From the UHGV virus genome UHGV-1135478: a stretch of 22,302 bases of DNA. One strand, given 5' to 3'. Shown in pieces: positions 1,151 to 14,487 of the stretch (position 1 is the stretch's first letter; each line of letters begins with the position of its first letter). Made by a program: the position numbers and the translations under genes. The stretch comes from a virus. The notes under the pieces were generated by a model. The model did not search any database. It was given only the letters and a program-made list of their open reading frames with translations, and had not been told where the DNA came from.

Positions 1151-9166
<8,016 letters not shown>

Positions 9167-9168
9167 TA

Positions 9169-10335
9169 ATGGCAGTAGGTGAAATTCAAATTAGTGCCTT
9201 GCCTCAAGCAGCCTTACCAATTGACCTTAGTGATATCTTCCATCTTAAGCAGGGTATTGAGGATAAGAGATGTACTCTTGAGCAATTACTTGCTCCACAC
9301 TCAAGCCTAAGAAATAACCCTCACGGTGTTACTAAAACACAAATTGGTTTAGATAATGTTATCAATGCTCTTCAGTTAGTTGCTGCAAATAACTTATCAG
9401 ATGTTGCTAATGTCACTGAGGCAAGAGCAAATCTACAGATTATGTCTTCAGAAGAGGTTAATAGCCTTGTTCAACAGCATATTAATGATAAAAGTAACCC
9501 ACACAATACAACTAAGGCACAGGTTGGTTTGAGCAATGTCCAGAACTGGGTGACATCTAACCTTTATAATGAGGATGCAGATAAGTATGCTACAGCAAGA
9601 GCAGTAAATAACTTGTACAAGGCTGTTCAGGCTTCTTATCCAGTAGGTACTATCCATCTCTCTATGAATCCTGCAAACCCTTCTACATATTTAATTTGTG
9701 GAGGTACTTGGGAGTTAGTTTCAAGAGGAAGAGCACTTGTAGGTTATGATAGTGATTCTAGGCCAGTTGGTAGTAACTTTGGCTCAAGTAGTGTTAGCTT
9801 ATCTAGTAACAACCTACCATCACATAGCCATTCAATCTACCTAACTGGTGGTGGACACACTCATGGTGCTGCTATTACTATTGATGGCTTTGATTACGGC
9901 AATAAGAGCACAAACAGTTTCGATTATGGAACAAAGACCACTAATAGCACTGGTGCTCACACCCACTCAGTGAGTGGTTCAACAAATACCACAGGTAATC
10001 ACACACATACTGTAGGTGGTCGTTATGGTGGTGACTCTATCGGTGGTAAACATCGTGTTCAGGTCTCAGGGACTGAACAGGTTTCCAGTGTAGCTGGTGA
10101 CCACTCACACGCTATTAGCGGTTCAACAAATACCACAGGTAATCACCAACACACTGTTGCAATTGGTGCTCATACCCATACTGTTGCAATTGGTGCTCAT
10201 ACCCATAAAGGCACAGTAACTTTGCAGTCATCTGAGCATACTCACTCAGGTACTACAGGTACTACAGGTGCTGGTCAAGCATTTAGCATTGAACAACCAT
10301 CCTTTGTGGTTTATGTATGGCAAAGAACCGCTTAA
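9169..10335 (+). CDS. Tail fibre protein (tail-collar-like domain + His-x-His repeat C-terminus)
   Basis: 388 aa. N-terminal repeated motif NPHxxTKxQxGLxNV (twice). Collar-like segment …CGGTWELVSRGRALVG…LSSNNLPSHSHS…. C-terminus rich in HTH/HSH/HQH motifs (GAHTHSVSGSTNTTGNHTHTVGG…). RBS AGGAG. Confidence 0.8.
   Translation: MAVGEIQISALPQAALPIDLSDIFHLKQGIEDKRCTLEQLLAPHSSLRNNPHGVTKTQIGLDNVINALQLVAANNLSDVANVTEARANLQIMSSEEVNSLVQQHINDKSNPHNTTKAQVGLSNVQNWVTSNLYNEDADKYATARAVNNLYKAVQASYPVGTIHLSMNPANPSTYLICGGTWELVSRGRALVGYDSDSRPVGSNFGSSSVSLSSNNLPSHSHSIYLTGGGHTHGAAITIDGFDYGNKSTNSFDYGTKTTNSTGAHTHSVSGSTNTTGNHTHTVGGRYGGDSIGGKHRVQVSGTEQVSSVAGDHSHAISGSTNTTGNHQHTVAIGAHTHTVAIGAHTHKGTVTLQSSEHTHSGTTGTTGAGQAFSIEQPSFVVYVWQRTA
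9916..10089 (+). repeat. Direct repeat copy 1 (shared tail-fibre C-terminal module)
   Basis: Roughly 80% nt identity by eye to 12546-12719; identical runs ACTGGTGCTCACACCCACTCAGTGAGTGGTTC (9949-9980 = 12579-12610) and TATGGTGGTGACTCTATCGGTGGTAAAC. Confidence 0.8.
10153..10206 (+). repeat. Perfect in-frame tandem duplication, 2 x 27 nt (encodes TVAIGAHTH twice)
   Basis: ACTGTTGCAATTGGTGCTCATACCCAT occurs twice back-to-back with no mismatch (10153-10179 and 10180-10206). Confidence 0.85.
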
Positions 10336-10347
10336 AAATTCTTTTAC

Positions 10348-10370
10348 AGGGGGCTGTACAGCCCTCTTTC
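10348..10370 (+). terminator. Candidate rho-independent terminator between the two fibre genes
   Basis: AGGGGGCT (10348-10355) pairs with AGCCCTCT (10360-10367), 8 bp with one G-U and loop GTAC; short T tract follows. Confidence 0.45.
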
Positions 10371-10385
10371 TAGAGGACAAAAATA

Positions 10386-12905
10386 ATGGCAGATTACAAA
10401 TTGAGTGAATTAAACTCAATCGATACAATCCGTTCAGACGACCTTCTTCATGTCAGGGTTAAAAAGAGACCTGAAATGCTGGGTGATGAAGACCGTCGAA
10501 TGACCTATCAAGACTTCTTAGCATCTTTTAAGCTTGAAAGATTTGTTCAGATTGCTGGTAGTACTATGACTGGTGACTTAGGGATTGTTAAGTTACTTTA
10601 TGGTGGTAAGGCAGTCTTTGACCCTACAGGCTCTTCTGAGATTACTATGGGGGATATTTTAAAGACTTTTAAAATTAACGCAAATGGTCTTAAATTAACT
10701 ATTGCAGATGCTTCAAGGTCAGCAACTGTTTATCATACTCTGAATAAGCCAAGTCCTAATGAGCTTGGTATGAGAACTAATGAAGAGAATGACGCAAGAT
10801 ATGCAAGACTTGCTGTTACAAACACATTCTCTGGGACTCAGAACATTCAAGGTGATGTTAACTTACTTCGCCTTAGAAACCAAAATGCAAATAATGCACA
10901 ATATATTGAAGGTGTAGACCTAGATGGCTCGGCTAGATGGTTGGTTGGTATTAGCAAAAATGGTTCTGATGCAGTGCAGTTGTACAATAACAAATATGAC
11001 TCAGCTTTGACTATTGCAAGCAATATCTCTGTGAATAAGTCTCTAGCAATCACTGGTCAAGTACAACCTTCTGACTTCTCTAACTTAGATGCTAGATACT
11101 TTACTCAGACAGCAGCTAATCAGAGATTTGCACAGTTAGCTGTTAATAACACTTTTACAGGTGCTAATACTTTCACTAACCTTGTTGTTAAGAAGAATGC
11201 TAATGCTATTACTTTGCAGAATACTGATGCAGGTACAGCACTTTATATTCTTGGTAAGAAGTCTGATGGAACAAATAAATGGTATGTTGGTACAGATTCT
11301 GATGAGACACGTCTGAATATTTATAACTACATTACAGGTTCACAGGTTTCACTAGGTACTACTGTTGGTATTAATAAAACCTTGCAAATCAATGGTCAAG
11401 TTCAACCATCTGATTGGACTAACATTGACTCTAGATATATTCCGGCAGCAACATTAAGTACAATTGCAAGAACTAATACTCTCAATACATTTTCTGTACG
11501 ACAAGTTATCAACTCTGATGGTGAAGCTCTTGCGTTAAAAGCAAAAACTGAAACGACATTGTTCATTAGGGGGTGGGCTGCTGATGGGACAGCTAAGTGG
11601 TATGTTGGTAATGGTGATGCCGATAACAATAATAACTTAAGGCTGTTTAACTACAAAACAGGTAAAGTGCTTACCATTGGCTCAACATTCGAAATGAATG
11701 CAACTTTAGCAATCACTGGGCAGGTTCAACCTTCAGATTGGTCTAACATTGATGCGAGATACTACAACAAATCATCTGCTGATAACAGATATCTGAGAGT
11801 AAGAAGCACAGATTTCAATACTAGTGGTGCTGGTAAATGGGCTAAGATTGCAACTGTGAATATGCCACAAGGCGCATCAACAGCAGTGATTGAACTGTTT
11901 GGTGGGGCTGGATTTAACTTTGGCCTAATTGACCAAGCCTGTAAGACAGAAATTGTTCTTAGGACAGGGGATGGTAACCCAAAAGGCTTAAATGTTGTTG
12001 CATGGAAAAACTCACCGAATAGTGTTGTAAGTAGAATTGGGTATGTTAATACCTCTGGTGATAACTATGACATTTATTGCGCAGTTGGTAACTATCTAGC
12101 CGCTACAACAGCTAGGGTTCAGTCAACATCTAATGCAACAGTACAACTGTTTGAGGCTCCAGAGACATCTGACAACGCTCCATCTGGCTATGTTGATGGG
12201 ACAATTGCTCACTATTACACTAGTCTCTTGAAGCCAACACCTTCAGATATTGGTGCATATACTAAATCAGAAACTGACCAGAAGATTGCACAGGCAATTA
12301 GTGACTCTACAGACCTTAATAAAATCTATCCAGTAGGTATTGTAACGTGGTTTAACAGTAATGTTAACCCTAATACCGCACTTCCTGGATTAACTTGGAC
12401 GTACCTGAACAATGGTGTAGGTAGGACAATCAGGGTTGCAGCAGCTAATGGTTCAGATGTTGCTACAACTGGAGGCTCAGATTCTGTTACGTTAGCAGTT
12501 GGAAACTTACCTTCACACACTCATAGTTTCTCTGCGACAACCTCTAGCTTTGACTACGGTACTAAAACCACTAACACTACTGGTGCTCACACCCACTCAG
12601 TGAGTGGTTCTACTAACAACACTGGTGCTCATACACATACAGTTGGTGGTCATTATGGTGGTGACTCTATCGGTGGTAAACCTCGTGTTCAGGTATTTGG
12701 TACAGAACAGGTATCTAGCTCTGCTGGTGCTCACGCTCACACTGTATCTGGTACTGCTGCCTCTAACGGAAACCATGCTCACACTGTTGGTATTGGTGCT
12801 CACAGTCATACAGTTAGTGGTAACACTGGTGGTACAGGTTCTGGTTCAGCATTTAGTGTAACTAACCAGTTCTATAAGCTGATGGCTTGGGTAAGAACTG
12901 CTTAA
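10386..12905 (+). CDS. Long tail fibre protein (internal domain repeats; collar-like + His-x-His C-terminus)
   Basis: 839 aa; RBS AGAGGA. Three to four ~110-aa internal repeats, each ending …GQVQPSD(F/W)(S/T)N(L/I)D(A/S)RY. C-terminal ~190 aa homologous to fibre 1 (…GNLPSHTHS…GAHTHSVSGSTNNTGAHTHTVGGHYGGDSIGGK…). Confidence 0.85.
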   Translation: MADYKLSELNSIDTIRSDDLLHVRVKKRPEMLGDEDRRMTYQDFLASFKLERFVQIAGSTMTGDLGIVKLLYGGKAVFDPTGSSEITMGDILKTFKINANGLKLTIADASRSATVYHTLNKPSPNELGMRTNEENDARYARLAVTNTFSGTQNIQGDVNLLRLRNQNANNAQYIEGVDLDGSARWLVGISKNGSDAVQLYNNKYDSALTIASNISVNKSLAITGQVQPSDFSNLDARYFTQTAANQRFAQLAVNNTFTGANTFTNLVVKKNANAITLQNTDAGTALYILGKKSDGTNKWYVGTDSDETRLNIYNYITGSQVSLGTTVGINKTLQINGQVQPSDWTNIDSRYIPAATLSTIARTNTLNTFSVRQVINSDGEALALKAKTETTLFIRGWAADGTAKWYVGNGDADNNNNLRLFNYKTGKVLTIGSTFEMNATLAITGQVQPSDWSNIDARYYNKSSADNRYLRVRSTDFNTSGAGKWAKIATVNMPQGASTAVIELFGGAGFNFGLIDQACKTEIVLRTGDGNPKGLNVVAWKNSPNSVVSRIGYVNTSGDNYDIYCAVGNYLAATTARVQSTSNATVQLFEAPETSDNAPSGYVDGTIAHYYTSLLKPTPSDIGAYTKSETDQKIAQAISDSTDLNKIYPVGIVTWFNSNVNPNTALPGLTWTYLNNGVGRTIRVAAANGSDVATTGGSDSVTLAVGNLPSHTHSFSATTSSFDYGTKTTNTTGAHTHSVSGSTNNTGAHTHTVGGHYGGDSIGGKPRVQVFGTEQVSSSAGAHAHTVSGTAASNGNHAHTVGIGAHSHTVSGNTGGTGSGSAFSVTNQFYKLMAWVRTA
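10773..11795 (+). repeat. Tandem ~330-nt intragenic domain repeats in the long fibre gene
   Basis: GQVQPSD motif recurs at codons 224, 337 and 445 (nt ~11055, ~11394, ~11718) with flanking KWYVG / LAVxNTF motifs; copies are diverged at nt level. Confidence 0.6.
12546..12719 (+). repeat. Direct repeat copy 2 (shared tail-fibre C-terminal module)
   Basis: Counterpart of 9916-10089; see that entry. Confidence 0.8.
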
Positions 12906-12912
12906 TCCCTTA

Positions 12913-12941
12913 TTGACTGATTGTTAAGATGGTGTTAATAT
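12913..12941 (+). promoter_or_regulatory. Sigma70-like promoter (TTGACT-N17-TAATAT)
   Basis: -35 TTGACT at 12913-12918, 17-nt spacer, -10 TAATAT at 12936-12941; 8 nt after the long-fibre stop and ~44 nt before ATG 12985. Confidence 0.55.
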
Positions 12942-12966
12942 TCTTTATGGGTATTCTCACCATCTT
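12926..12966. repeat. Perfect 9-bp inverted repeat bracketing the promoter -10 and start region (operator-like)
   Basis: AAGATGGTG (12926-12934) and CACCATCTT (12958-12966), 23-nt spacer; no T tract follows, so not a canonical terminator. Confidence 0.5.
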
Positions 12967-12984
12967 GGCTGATGAGGTGATTAA

Positions 12985-13179
12985 ATGCCTACAATCCTAG
13001 CAATTCTCCTAAAAAATCTAGGTAGCTTCTTCTGGAAACTCATTTTATCCCTTCTAAGTGAATACATGATTGAGAAAGTGTTCTTTAAGCTTGCAAGATA
13101 CCTTGCGGGTAAGACAGACACACCTATTGATGATGAGTTCGTAGATAACTTAGAAAAAGCTTTTAAGGGGGAGAAATAA
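12985..13179 (+). CDS. Small membrane-associated protein (holin-like or exclusion-type; function unknown)
   Basis: 64 aa; hydrophobic N-terminal half (ILAILLKNLGSFFWKLILSLL) and charged C-terminus; RBS GAGGTG 5 nt before ATG. Confidence 0.5.
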   Translation: MPTILAILLKNLGSFFWKLILSLLSEYMIEKVFFKLARYLAGKTDTPIDDEFVDNLEKAFKGEK

Positions 13180-13545
13180 ATGAAGTGGCTAGAGGAAGCT
13201 TTTAAAAATAATATTGGTGCAATTGTTGTTGGTATTTTTAGTGTTATTGGGATGTATACCACGATGCAAGTTTCAAGTGGTAAGCAAGAAGTGTCTGTCA
13301 CAACAAAGTTACAGCAGCTAGATAATTATTCCAGAAGTAACTATTCAGCTATTCGTGATTTACAGTCTGACATGAGACTGATTCAGCTAGGGATGGAGAA
13401 CCAGAAAGTTCAGTTAGAGAATGTTAAGGGTGAAAACGCAAAACTTACCAGAACCCTTGATAAATTCTCTGACAGTGTAAATAATCTGGCTCAATCAGTA
13501 TCAGCCCTCCAAGCTATTACTGAGAAGAACACAAAAGAACACTGA
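13180..13545 (+). CDS. Membrane-anchored coiled-coil protein (i-spanin-like topology; function unknown)
   Basis: 121 aa; one N-terminal transmembrane segment (IGAIVVGIFSVIGMYTTM) then a heptad-like polar/charged region; RBS GGGGGAG; start overlaps preceding stop (TAAATG). Confidence 0.5.
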   Translation: MKWLEEAFKNNIGAIVVGIFSVIGMYTTMQVSSGKQEVSVTTKLQQLDNYSRSNYSAIRDLQSDMRLIQLGMENQKVQLENVKGENAKLTRTLDKFSDSVNNLAQSVSALQAITEKNTKEH

Positions 13546-13557
13546 AAATAAAATTTT

Positions 13558-13581
13558 AAGGCTCCTTTTTACGGGAGCCTT
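13558..13581. terminator. Bidirectional intrinsic terminator at the convergent junction
   Basis: AAGGCTCC (13558-13565) pairs with GGAGCCTT (13574-13581), loop TTTTTACG; T-rich 3' on the + strand and U-rich on the - strand; between stop 13545 (+) and stop 13588 (-). Confidence 0.65.
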
Positions 13582-13587
13582 TTTGTT

Positions 13588-14487
13588 TTACTTACCTACT
13601 GACAAAGGTGCTTCAATCTTCCCTGCGTGTTTGTAGTTGTTAATACCACCAATAAAATCACTCGCAGTAAGGTGTTTTAGGTCACTTAGCGTGTTAAGTG
13701 GTAGACCAATCTCAAAAGTTGGTGCATGGAACTCTTCATTATTCATCAATTCATAAACCTGCTTCATATGGTTCTGATAAATCTGAGTATCCCCAAAGAC
13801 ACCTATCAAGTATCGTGGAGTGTACCCAGTCATCTTGCAAAGTACTTCCAGAATAAAACCATAAGATGCAATGTTAAACGGAAGTCCTAAAAAGGTGTCT
13901 ACAGAACGTTGATACCATTGTAAGTCAACTTCACCCTCGTTAGTGATATAAATCTGAAACAGAACATGACAAGGTGCTAAAGCCATCGAGTTGGATGCAA
14001 TATCTGCTGCATTCCAAGCATTAACAAGCATGTAGCGGTCTGTGATATCACCTTTCATCTTCGTTACTAAGGTCTCTAACTGGTCTACAACACAACCATT
14101 ATGACCTTCAAAGTTTCTCCACTGAACCCCGTAGATTCTCCCACCTGCATCTTCTAACCAATCTTGTTCAGAAGAATAATTAGAGCTTAACCAGCGTTTA
14201 AAATCATCTGACCAGATAGTCCAGCGTTCTCCATCATTTTCACCCCAAGTACGGTAACGGAGTTCACCAAGTTTATTCTCACCGTTCAGGAACCATAAAG
14301 CTTCCCCAATAACTTGCCGTGTAAACACCTGTTTAGATGTTAAGAGTGGGAAACCAGTACGCATATCAAAACGAAATTGTGGTGGAGCGAATGCAGAGAT
14401 AACATCTCCAGTTCGTGCAGTACGCAGTTCACCAACGGATAAAACATGGTTCAGGATATTTTTGTAACTTGAATCTGCTTGTGACAT
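13588..14487 (-). CDS. thyA: Thymidylate synthase
   Basis: Active-site region …PCHVLFQIYI…QWYQRSVDTFLGLPFNIASYGFILEVLCKMTGY…GDTQIYQNHM… matches the ThyA signature. Start set to ATG 14485-14487 (MSQADSS…) just downstream of the DHFR stop, rather than the upstream alternative start in the ORF track. Confidence 0.9.
   Translation of the reverse strand: MSQADSSYKNILNHVLSVGELRTARTGDVISAFAPPQFRFDMRTGFPLLTSKQVFTRQVIGEALWFLNGENKLGELRYRTWGENDGERWTIWSDDFKRWLSSNYSSEQDWLEDAGGRIYGVQWRNFEGHNGCVVDQLETLVTKMKGDITDRYMLVNAWNAADIASNSMALAPCHVLFQIYITNEGEVDLQWYQRSVDTFLGLPFNIASYGFILEVLCKMTGYTPRYLIGVFGDTQIYQNHMKQVYELMNNEEFHAPTFEIGLPLNTLSDLKHLTASDFIGGINNYKHAGKIEAPLSVGK

What the first reader, a model, noticed from the sequence alone, without database searches (positions are those of the whole stretch)
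9800..10335. Dense His-x-His arrays at both fibre tips suggest a metal-binding needle
Both fibre C-termini carry many regularly spaced H-T-H / H-S-H / H-Q-H / H-A-H motifs in Gly/Ser/Thr-rich repeats (the same in 12500-12905). The T4 long tail fibre tip (gp37) uses stacked His-x-His motifs to coordinate iron ions along a trimeric needle. The preceding segment with GxW…RGR…LPSHxHS resembles the phage tail-collar domain from memory. Receptor binding may therefore depend on metal-stabilised trimer tips.
Basis: partly seen in the sequence, partly recalled or inferred. Interest (0 to 1): 0.4.

Follow-up and report, generated by a model that had tools for sequence, protein, structure and literature searches.

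The report
Metal-binding needle tips on Felix O1 fibres
Both tail-fibre genes of this Felix O1-type Salmonella phage end in a clear relative of the phage T4 gp37 receptor-binding tip, whose paired histidines hold metal ions along a three-chain needle; this is real but was already described for this phage genus.

Summary
The short fibre (9169-10335, 388 aa) has 9 His-x-His motifs (window 9823-10245). The long fibre (10386-12905, 839 aa) has 6 (12516-12809). No shuffle out of 20,000 reached either count.

Both C-termini are sequence homologues of the T4 gp37 tip (PDB 2XGF): phmmer E 1e-24 and 5e-13, hhalign 99.8%. All seven iron-binding HxH of T4 align with HxH in the short fibre, and six of seven in the long fibre. 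In 37 orthologues the His pairs are almost invariant, the middle residue varies, and the head between the two needle strands is hypervariable.

One detail was wrong. Pfam Collar PF07484 is not hit; the sister collar family PF21939 (Gp10_C) is.

The window is a Felixounavirus, 98% identical to phages SBA-1781, SPT-1 and Mushroom. The Bas63 cryo-EM paper (PMC12609058, 2025) already describes collar, HxH needle and head on both fibres. The Felix O1 genome paper (2010) noted the gp37 similarity. So the finding is already known. Metal binding remains inferred.

Side findings: Felix O1-type short fibres have 9 sites against 7 in T4 and Bas63. In most Salmonella Felix O1-clade genomes sampled (5 of 6), both fibres carry nearly the same head.

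The parts
9169..10335 (+). Short tail fibre gene (STF, 388 aa). It is the orthologue of Bas63 gp26 and of Felix O1 ORF180 ('putative tail fiber protein GP37').
   Evidence: ORF list and translation. PHROG 2097 tail fiber, E 4e-138. The tip is 100% identical to phage Mushroom, 97.9% to Felix O1 and 60% to Bas63. Synteny with Bas63 and Felix O1.
9604..9822 (+). STF collar domain (aa 146-218), including YPVGT, GGTWELVSRGR and NNLPS.
   Evidence: Pfam PF21939 Gp10_C, E 1e-18. PDB T4 gp10 C-terminal domain, E 6e-8, and alignment to the 2XGF collar. hhalign.
9823..10008 (+). STF descending needle strand (aa 219-280) with four HxH (219, 230, 264, 278) and two FDYGxK units. HxH 230 lies in a 21-residue insertion relative to the LTF (13 residues relative to T4).
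   Evidence: alignments with T4 gp37 883-931. His invariance in 37 orthologues.
10009..10101 (+). STF head (aa 281-311, TVGGRYGGDSIGGKHRVQVSGTEQVSSVAGD). This is the turn of the chain and the presumed receptor-contacting tip.
   Evidence: It aligns with the head region of T4 gp37 (about 932-965). It is hypervariable among orthologues, with mean column entropy 3.05 bits against 0.7-0.8 in the collar.
10102..10245 (+). STF ascending needle strand (aa 312-359) with five HxH (312, 326, 335, 344, 357). HxH 357 has no counterpart in T4.
   Evidence: Pfam PF03335 Phage_fiber repeat, 22.3 bits against a cut-off of 20.
10246..10335 (+). STF C-terminal segment (aa 360-388, ...GQAFSIEQPSFVVYVWQRTA) followed by the stop codon. 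It aligns with the C-terminus of T4 gp37 and, by analogy, returns to the collar.
   Evidence: Alignments. Strongly conserved, entropy 0.69. The return to the collar is inferred from the T4 and Bas63 descriptions.
10386..12905 (+). Long tail fibre gene (LTF, 839 aa). It is the orthologue of Bas63 gp27 and Felix O1 gp77.
   Evidence: PHROG 4277 tail fiber, full length, E 0. Pfam PF20744 gp37_trimer x3, E 5e-64, and PF03335.
10860..11790 (+). LTF shaft with three gp37_trimer-type repeat units. The borders are approximate.
   Evidence: Pfam PF20744 in 3 stretches, best at aa 159-247. Direct DNA repeat family D3 at 11032, 11371 and 11695.
12318..12515 (+). LTF collar domain (aa 645-710).
   Evidence: Pfam PF21939 Gp10_C, E 4e-6, 28.2 bits against a cut-off of 27. 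54% identity to the STF tip overall.
12516..12638 (+). LTF descending needle strand (aa 711-751) with three HxH (711, 735, 749).
12639..12731 (+). LTF head (aa 752-782, TVGGHYGGDSIGGKPRVQVFGTEQVSSSAGA). It is 26/31 identical to the STF head.
   Evidence: The 198-nt DNA repeat 9916-10113 / 12546-12743 is 81% identical.
12732..12809 (+). LTF ascending needle strand (aa 783-808) with three HxH (783, 797, 806). The counterpart of T4's seventh site (H998/H1000) is absent.
   Evidence: PF03335 Phage_fiber, E 4e-13.
8864..9166 (+). 100-aa protein upstream of the fibres. It is the probable long-fibre platform (Bas63 gp25 equivalent, T4 gp9-like).
   Evidence: Same length and position as bas63_0025. 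Role taken from PMC12609058. PHROG 4141, unknown function. Assigned by synteny only.
6054..6062 (+). HTH motif (aa 188-190) at the tip of the central baseplate spike (gene 5493-6116). This is a third trimeric HxH site in the same virion.
   Evidence: Translation shows NEHTHHYYW. Bas63 spike H188/H190 is described as a likely iron site (PMC12609058). Sf14 H194/H196 (PMC11821841).

Best explanation
Both fibre genes of this Felix O1-type myophage end in a T4 gp37-type receptor-binding tip.

The proposed anatomy is as follows. Three chains form a collar. Each chain then runs down a thin six-stranded needle, turns in a small variable head, and runs back up to the collar. At each HxH, the two histidines of each of the three chains point to the trimer axis, and six imidazoles hold one metal ion. 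In T4 that ion is Fe2+.

The predicted load is 9 metal ions per short fibre and 6 per long fibre. The ions act as internal rivets. They fix the register of the intertwined chains and stiffen the needle so that the head can be presented to the LPS receptor. They are not themselves the receptor-binding surface.

Shown here: homology, column-by-column correspondence of the HxH with T4's iron sites, invariance of the His pairs, and hypervariability of the head. Inferred: the trimeric hairpin topology, metal occupancy, the identity of the metal, and the dependence of adsorption on it.
For: - Homology to PDB 2XGF: STF E 9.6e-25; LTF E 5e-13; hhalign of the orthologue profile against T4 gp37 785-1026 gives 99.8%, E 8.5e-30, 211 aligned columns.
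- HxH correspondence: 7/7 T4 HxH align with STF HxH and 6/7 with LTF HxH, with the same 14-[head]-14-9-9 spacing.
- Conservation in 37 orthologues: the His at 219/221, 230/232, 326/328 and 344/346 are 37/37, and most others are at least 33/34. The middle residue varies (S, T, N, A, K, R, D, E, Q, Y, I, V, G). The head is hypervariable.
- Pfam: PF21939 collar and PF03335 fibre repeat in both tips.
- Literature on T4: seven Fe along the gp37 needle; Ala substitution of H929 or H931 abolishes plaque formation (PMC6957217).
- Literature on this genus: Bas63 cryo-EM shows both Felixounavirus fibres as trimers with collar, six-stranded HxH needle and head (PMC12609058).
- My HxH counts for Bas63 (STF 7; LTF 6 with HHxH at 692-695) reproduce that paper.
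Against: - No metal has been measured for any Felixounavirus fibre. The Bas63 fibre density was too poor for side chains.
- The AF2 monomer model was of low confidence (mean pLDDT 57.7, needle below 50). Foldseek found nothing at E<=0.001.
- The two extra STF sites (230, 357) have no solved precedent.
- The number of sites is not fixed in the family. STF has 9 or 7; LTF has 6, 4 or 7. Individual sites are therefore dispensable.
- In the 37-sequence alignment the H264/H266 column holds His in only 26-28 sequences. The Bas63-type STFs have FDYG repeats there instead.
- PF07484 (Collar) is not matched.
Confidence: 0.85

Rival explanations
1. The fold is the same, but the bound metal is not iron. 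It could be zinc, as in the T4 short fibre gp12, or nickel, or a mixture depending on availability.
For: Sequence cannot tell metals apart. That the HxH site of T4 gp12 holds Zn is my own recollection and was not checked here. The collar here matches the gp10/gp12-type family PF21939 rather than PF07484.
Against: The closest solved homologue (2XGF) has Fe at all seven aligned sites (PMC6957217; PMC12609058). Octahedral coordination by six His is typical of Fe2+ in the related spikes.
Confidence: 0.25
2. The HxH repeats are only a beta-strand repeat signature of this fibre class (PF03335). They would be kept for packing or hydrogen bonding in the needle core, without metal occupancy in these two proteins.
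For: The number of motifs varies between orthologues (9/7 and 6/4/7). One site is replaced by non-His residues in some STFs. No metal data exist for this genus.
Against: Both His of a pair are conserved together while the middle residue is free. That pattern is expected for a chelating pair, not for packing. The aligned T4 sites are all occupied, and H929/H931 are essential.
Confidence: 0.07
3. The metal or the histidines take a direct part in host recognition. One version is the 'Ferrojan horse' idea, in which fibre iron is recognised by siderophore receptors. Another is that they act as a pH or redox switch that releases the fibre.
For: The idea is discussed in the literature for HxH fibres (PMC11705849). 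The His content of the tips is about 10%.
Against: Felix O1-type phages are reported to use LPS, not protein receptors (PMC8594841; PMC8300805). In T4 the receptor-contacting residues lie on the head surface, and the iron-binding histidines are described as a folding and structure motif. Here the variable, presumably specificity-determining part is the head, not the HxH.
Confidence: 0.03

Closest known systems
T4 gp37 long-tail-fibre receptor-binding tip (PDB 2XGF; residues 785-1026)
   Same: The order is collar, descending needle, head, ascending needle and C-terminus. Seven of seven (STF) or six of seven (LTF) iron-binding HxH fall in the same alignment columns. The FDYGTK and IGAHTHTV units are shared, and the spacing is the same.
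   Different: - The STF adds two HxH (aa 230 and 357), both next to the collar. The LTF lacks T4's seventh.
- The collar matches Pfam PF21939 rather than PF07484.
- Each tip sits on a single-protein fibre attached to a simple Mu/P2-like baseplate, and it occurs on two different fibres of one virion.
- No gp38 homologue is found in the window (tblastn, no hit at E<=10).
Bas63 (Escherichia phage JohannRWettstein) STF gp26 and LTF gp27, Felixounavirus cryo-EM model (PMC12609058)
   Same: These are orthologous genes in the same order: wedge 2 (489 aa), wedge 1 (285 aa), a 100-aa platform, STF, LTF. The paper describes the same collar, HxH needle and head architecture for both fibres. The LTF has 6 HxH in both phages.
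   Different: - The STF tip is only 60% identical.
- The Bas63 STF has 7 HxH. The two on the distal descending strand are replaced by FDYG repeats. The window's STF has 9.
- The Bas63 STF and LTF heads are unrelated (6% identity), whereas the window's are 84% identical.
T4 gp10 C-terminal domain (PDB 2FKK, 5HX2) and the gp12 collar class
   Same: The collar part of both tips (YPxGT...NP.NP.TY...G.W) matches this family: PF21939 at E 1e-18, and PDB gp10 at E 6e-8.
   Different: gp10 has no HxH needle after the collar. The match ends at about STF aa 228.
Lambda side tail fibre Stf (orf-314) and E. coli prophage fibres with PF07484 + PF03335 + PF03406
   Same: The needle repeat region is shared, with 38-57% identity over STF tip residues 96-213. 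Prophage homologues appear at E 1e-30 to 1e-23.
   Different: They carry the PF07484 collar and a PF03406 C-terminal repeat, and sit on lambdoid or P2-type fibres.

Membership tests
T4 gp37-type receptor-binding tip (collar-needle-head) | Significant sequence similarity to the solved tip (2XGF) across collar, needle and head | tested here: met
   phmmer E 9.6e-25 for the STF and 5e-13 for the LTF. hhalign 99.8%, E 8.5e-30.
T4 gp37-type receptor-binding tip (collar-needle-head) | HxH motifs at the positions of the seven iron-coordinating pairs of gp37 (883, 915, 929, 966, 980, 989, 998) | tested here: met
   The STF has 7/7 plus 2 extra. The LTF has 6/7, lacking 998.
T4 gp37-type receptor-binding tip (collar-needle-head) | The His pairs are under stronger constraint than their surroundings, and the head is variable | tested here: met
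   In 37 orthologues the His are invariant or nearly so, the middle residue has entropy 1.0-2.7 bits, and the head has 3.05 bits.
T4 gp37-type receptor-binding tip (collar-needle-head) | Homotrimer with the chain reversing at the head to give a six-stranded needle | not testable with these tools
   Only monomer AF2 was available. The model had pLDDT 57.7 and was uninformative. The topology is described for the orthologous Bas63 fibres from medium-resolution cryo-EM and AlphaFold models.
T4 gp37-type receptor-binding tip (collar-needle-head) | Bound Fe2+ at each HxH layer | not testable with these tools
   This needs metal analysis or a high-resolution structure. No data exist for any Felixounavirus.
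T4 gp37-type receptor-binding tip (collar-needle-head) | Dependence on a dedicated chaperone (T4 gp38, gp57A) | tested here: inconclusive
   T4 gp38 gives no tblastn hit in the window at E<=10. The two small ORFs downstream of the LTF are membrane or coiled-coil proteins of unknown PHROG function. The window covers only 22 kb of a genome of about 87 kb, and gp57A was not tested.
Pfam PF07484 Phage Tail Collar Domain | Match to the PF07484 profile at or above its gathering score (24 bits) | tested here: not met
   Neither tip hits it even at E<=10, while the T4 gp37 tip scores 44.8 bits in the same run. More distant homologues of the STF tip do carry PF07484.
Pfam PF21939 Gp10_C (baseplate gp10 C-terminal / collar) | Match at or above the gathering score (27 bits) | tested here: met
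   The STF tip scores 69.1 bits. The LTF tip scores 28.2 bits, only marginally above the cut-off.
Pfam PF03335 Phage tail fibre repeat (14-residue HxH unit) | Match at or above the gathering score (20 bits), in multiple copies | tested here: met
   The LTF tip scores 48.5 bits with 6 stretches. The STF tip scores 22.3 bits with 4 stretches.
Genus Felixounavirus (Ounavirinae) | Nucleotide identity and synteny with Felix O1-type genomes | tested here: met
   Window 6000-14000 is 98% identical over 100% of its length to Salmonella phages SBA-1781, SPT-1 and FM4b, and 97.5% to Mushroom. The gene order is identical to Mushroom, Felix O1 and Bas63.

The most novel reading that the evidence does not exclude
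In the Salmonella-infecting Felix O1 clade, the short and long fibres carry almost the same distal needle and head module. The heads are 26/31 identical in the window, and 81-100% identical within the genomes of Felix O1 and three related contigs. One close relative (L024) and all E. coli relatives have unrelated heads on their two fibres.

If the head is the receptor-contacting part, as in T4, these phages present one specificity at two different reaches from the baseplate. That would be twelve equivalent binders for the conserved LPS core. It could contribute to Felix O1's famously broad Salmonella range.

The module is kept alike mostly by purifying selection. Of 66 codons, 21 differ synonymously and 10 non-synonymously. 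In some genomes there are signs of local exchange between the two genes.

Separately, the 9-site STF would make this one of the most metal-loaded fibre needles described. The tally is 6x9 + 6x6 + 1, about 91 ions per virion, assuming six fibres of each kind as in Bas63.
Probability: 0.4. Interest if true: 0.35.

Novelty: already known. Interest (0 to 1): 0.15.

Why it matters
For the finding as given, the value is confirmation. The HxH arrays are a genuine, homologous copy of the T4 iron-needle design on both fibres of a therapeutically and diagnostically used phage group. Fibre engineering should treat the His pairs as untouchable scaffold and the roughly 30-residue head as the swappable specificity element.

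The data also show that needle length changes in modular steps: 4, 6, 7 or 9 sites. Heads move between fibre genes and even between T4-like and Felix O1-like phages. That is practical information for designing chimeric receptor-binding proteins. None of this changes current understanding of how such tips work.

Tried and rejected
1. AF2 monomer model of the full STF with a 37-sequence alignment. Mean pLDDT was 57.7, pTM 0.24, and the needle and head were below 50. This is expected for an obligate intertwined trimer.
2. Foldseek of that model against the PDB. There was no match at E<=0.001. The weak top hits were T4-type gp10. I discarded this as evidence either way.
3. It was not hit even at E<=10, so the collar is filed under PF21939 instead.
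4. A search for a gp38-like chaperone next to the fibres. T4 gp38 gave no tblastn hit in the window. The 64-aa and 121-aa ORFs downstream (12985-13179 and 13180-13545) each have an N-terminal hydrophobic helix. The larger one has a coiled coil and only 'unknown function' PHROGs. I read them as membrane or lysis-type proteins rather than chaperones, without proof.
5. Recent gene conversion as the explanation for the shared STF/LTF head. I rejected it as the main cause. The shared 198-nt segment is only 76-91% identical at DNA level, with mostly synonymous differences. STF segments cluster with the STFs of other phages rather than with their own LTF. Local exchange in some genomes (L007) is not excluded.
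6. The Bartual 2010 PNAS paper on 2XGF is not in the library. The T4 facts were taken from PMC6957217 and PMC12609058.

Full report
**What the window is.**
The 22.3-kb window is part of a Felixounavirus (Felix O1-like myophage) genome. Window 6000-14000 is 98% identical over its full length to Salmonella phages SBA-1781, SPT-1 and FM4b, and 97.5% to Mushroom. The gene order is the same as in the annotated Mushroom, Felix O1 and Bas63 records: tape measure, hub, spike, wedge proteins, two fibre genes, then thymidylate synthase on the other strand.

The two fibre genes are 9169-10335 (388 aa, called STF here) and 10386-12905 (839 aa, LTF).

**The observation.**
The STF has nine HxH motifs between aa 219 and 359 (window 9823-10245). 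The LTF has six between aa 711 and 808 (window 12516-12809).

Residue shuffles of each tip give on average 1.9 and 1.1 HxH. They never reached the observed numbers in 20,000 trials. The tips are rich in Thr, Gly, Ser and His.

The spacing is regular and mirrors T4 gp37: 14 residues, a gap of about 34 across the head, then 14, 9, 9. The LTF has only LPSHTHS.

**What it is.**
The C-terminal 240 residues of the STF are a direct sequence homologue of the crystallised T4 gp37 receptor-binding tip.
- phmmer against PDB sequences gives 2XGF at E 9.6e-25 for the STF (aa 146-359) and 5e-13 for the LTF (aa 708-818).
- A profile of 37 STF orthologues aligns with T4 gp37 785-1026 at hhalign probability 99.8% (E 8.5e-30). 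The alignment runs through collar, descending needle, head, ascending needle and C-terminus.
- In MAFFT and hhalign alignments the seven T4 HxH (883, 915, 929, 966, 980, 989, 998) fall on STF HxH 219, 264, 278, 312, 326, 335 and 344.
- The first six T4 sites fall on LTF HxH 711, 735, 749, 783, 797 and 806.

The STF has two further HxH (230 and 357). Both sit in insertions next to the collar, one on each strand. That is what a needle lengthened at its collar end would look like (inference). The LTF lacks the counterpart of T4's seventh site and has a shorter descending strand.

Pfam places the collar of both tips in PF21939 (Gp10_C) and the needle in PF03335 (Phage_fiber repeat). More distant homologues of the STF tip in E. 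coli prophages do carry PF07484. The two collar families therefore sit on otherwise homologous tips.

**Constraint.**
Among 37 STF orthologues (41-90% identical to the window's STF), the His at 219/221, 230/232, 326/328 and 344/346 are invariant. Those at 278/280, 312/314, 335/337 and 357/359 are nearly so. The middle residue takes up to eight different amino acids.

The segment between the last descending and first ascending HxH, the head, is by far the most variable part. Its mean column entropy is 3.05 bits, against 0.7-0.8 in the collar and C-terminus.

This is the pattern expected if the paired histidines are a structural chelating scaffold and the head is the specificity element. The exception is the pair at 264/266. 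It is replaced by non-His residues in Bas63-type STFs, which have FDYG repeats there instead.

**Mechanism.**
The facts about T4 come from the literature. Seven iron ions are coordinated along the gp37 needle by the HxH histidines of the three chains. Alanine substitution of H929 or H931 abolishes plaque formation. Receptor-contacting residues line the head (PMC6957217; PMC12609058).

By homology, I conclude that each fibre here is a trimer whose tip is a metal-riveted needle, with nine sites in the STF and six in the LTF. The metal fixes chain register and stiffness, and the head binds LPS. Felix O1-type phages are reported to use LPS rather than protein receptors.

Homology, site correspondence and constraint are shown. 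Trimer topology, metal occupancy, metal identity and the effect on adsorption are inferred.

**What could not be tested.**
The only structure tool available predicts monomers. The STF model had mean pLDDT 57.7, with the needle below 50. Its Foldseek search against the PDB gave nothing at E<=0.001, only weak gp10 hits. This is uninformative rather than negative, because the tip is an obligate intertwined trimer.

**Prior knowledge.**
- The Felix O1 genome paper (2010) already reported that gp76 and gp77 resemble T4 gp37 at their C-termini (PMC3185647). The GenBank record calls both 'putative tail fiber protein GP37'.
[quoted passage not shown] It counts seven di-His motifs in the STF and six in the LTF (PMC12609058). 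My counts on the Bas63 sequences reproduce these numbers, including the HHxH at 692-695.
- HxH fibres as iron binders are also discussed for other phages (PMC11705849).

The finding is therefore already known for this genus. The window only adds another member.

**Additional points from this analysis.**
1. Nine HxH, not seven, is the common state of Felixounavirus STFs: 25 of 30 loci, and 51 of the 120 best database homologues. LTFs have 6 (23 loci), 4 (6 loci) or 7 (1 locus). Needle length therefore changes in modular steps.
2. In the window the STF and LTF share a 198-nt segment at 81% DNA identity (9916-10113 against 12546-12743). It covers the distal needle and the head, and the heads are 26/31 identical.
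   - The same holds within Felix O1 (94%) and three related contigs (81-100%).
   - It does not hold in Bas63 or any of the E. coli-type relatives (27% or less), nor in one close Salmonella relative, L024.
   - The differences are mostly synonymous (21 against 10 of 66 codons). STF segments cluster with the STFs of other phages. This points to an old shared module kept by selection rather than recent conversion.
   - If the head binds the receptor as in T4, both fibres of these phages see the same epitope.
3. Two E. coli-type contigs (L010, L012) carry on their LTF a head almost identical to that of T4 gp37 itself. This indicates head exchange between T4-like and Felix O1-like phages.
4. The central spike (5493-6116) also ends in an HTH motif at aa 188-190. 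It matches the proposed iron site H188/H190 of the Bas63 spike.

**Chaperones.**
T4 gp38 has no tblastn match in the window. The two small ORFs after the LTF look like membrane or coiled-coil proteins of unknown function. The Sf14 paper likewise notes single-protein fibres and finds no homologues of the Mu fibre chaperones (gp50, gp51) in the related Ounavirinae phage Sf14 (PMC11821841). How these tips fold without a gp38 equivalent is open, but the window covers only a quarter of the genome.

**Verdict.**
The feature is an ordinary, already described member of the gp37-type fibre tips. Interest is low. The shared head on both fibres of the Salmonella clade is the only point that may merit follow-up.

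Noticed in passing
window 9916-10113 and 12546-12743 (STF aa 250-315, LTF aa 721-786): The distal needle and head of the short and long fibres are nearly the same: 81% DNA identity, and heads 26/31 identical. The same holds within Felix O1 and three related Salmonella-type contigs (81-100%). It does not hold in Bas63, the E. coli-type relatives (27% or less) or L024. The differences are mostly synonymous. This suggests both fibres target the same receptor epitope in this clade. I saw no mention of it in the papers I read.
   Followed up: partly
L010 and L012 (IMG/VR Felixounavirus contigs), LTF head: Their LTF head ([34 protein letters not shown]) is almost identical to the T4 gp37 head ([34 protein letters not shown]). 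This implies exchange of head modules between T4-like and Felix O1-like phages.
   Followed up: no
window 6054-6062 (spike gene 5493-6116, aa 188-190): The central baseplate spike ends in NEHTHHYYW. This HxH matches the proposed iron site H188/H190 of the Bas63 spike, so the virion has three different trimeric HxH elements.
   Followed up: partly
window 9316-9366 and 9496-9546 (STF aa 50-66 and 110-126): There are two copies of the motif NPHxxTKxQ[IV]GLxNVxN in the STF shaft. H52 and H112 are (nearly) invariant among orthologues. It may be a shaft repeat shared with other fibre proteins. It was not analysed.
   Followed up: no
window 12985-13179 and 13180-13545: Two small ORFs (64 and 121 aa) lie directly after the long fibre gene. 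Each has an N-terminal hydrophobic helix, and the larger has a long coiled coil. Both fall in PHROGs of unknown function. One gene of this stretch is annotated 'holin' in some relatives; which one was not checked. They could be lysis or spanin-like proteins and are not obviously fibre chaperones.
   Followed up: partly
L009, L021, L023, L027, L031 (IMG/VR contigs), LTF tips: A group of Felixounavirus LTFs has only 4 HxH and a much larger head of about 67 residues (NRGTMEITGSFGYFRSD...). This may be a different kind of receptor-binding head on the same needle scaffold.
   Followed up: no
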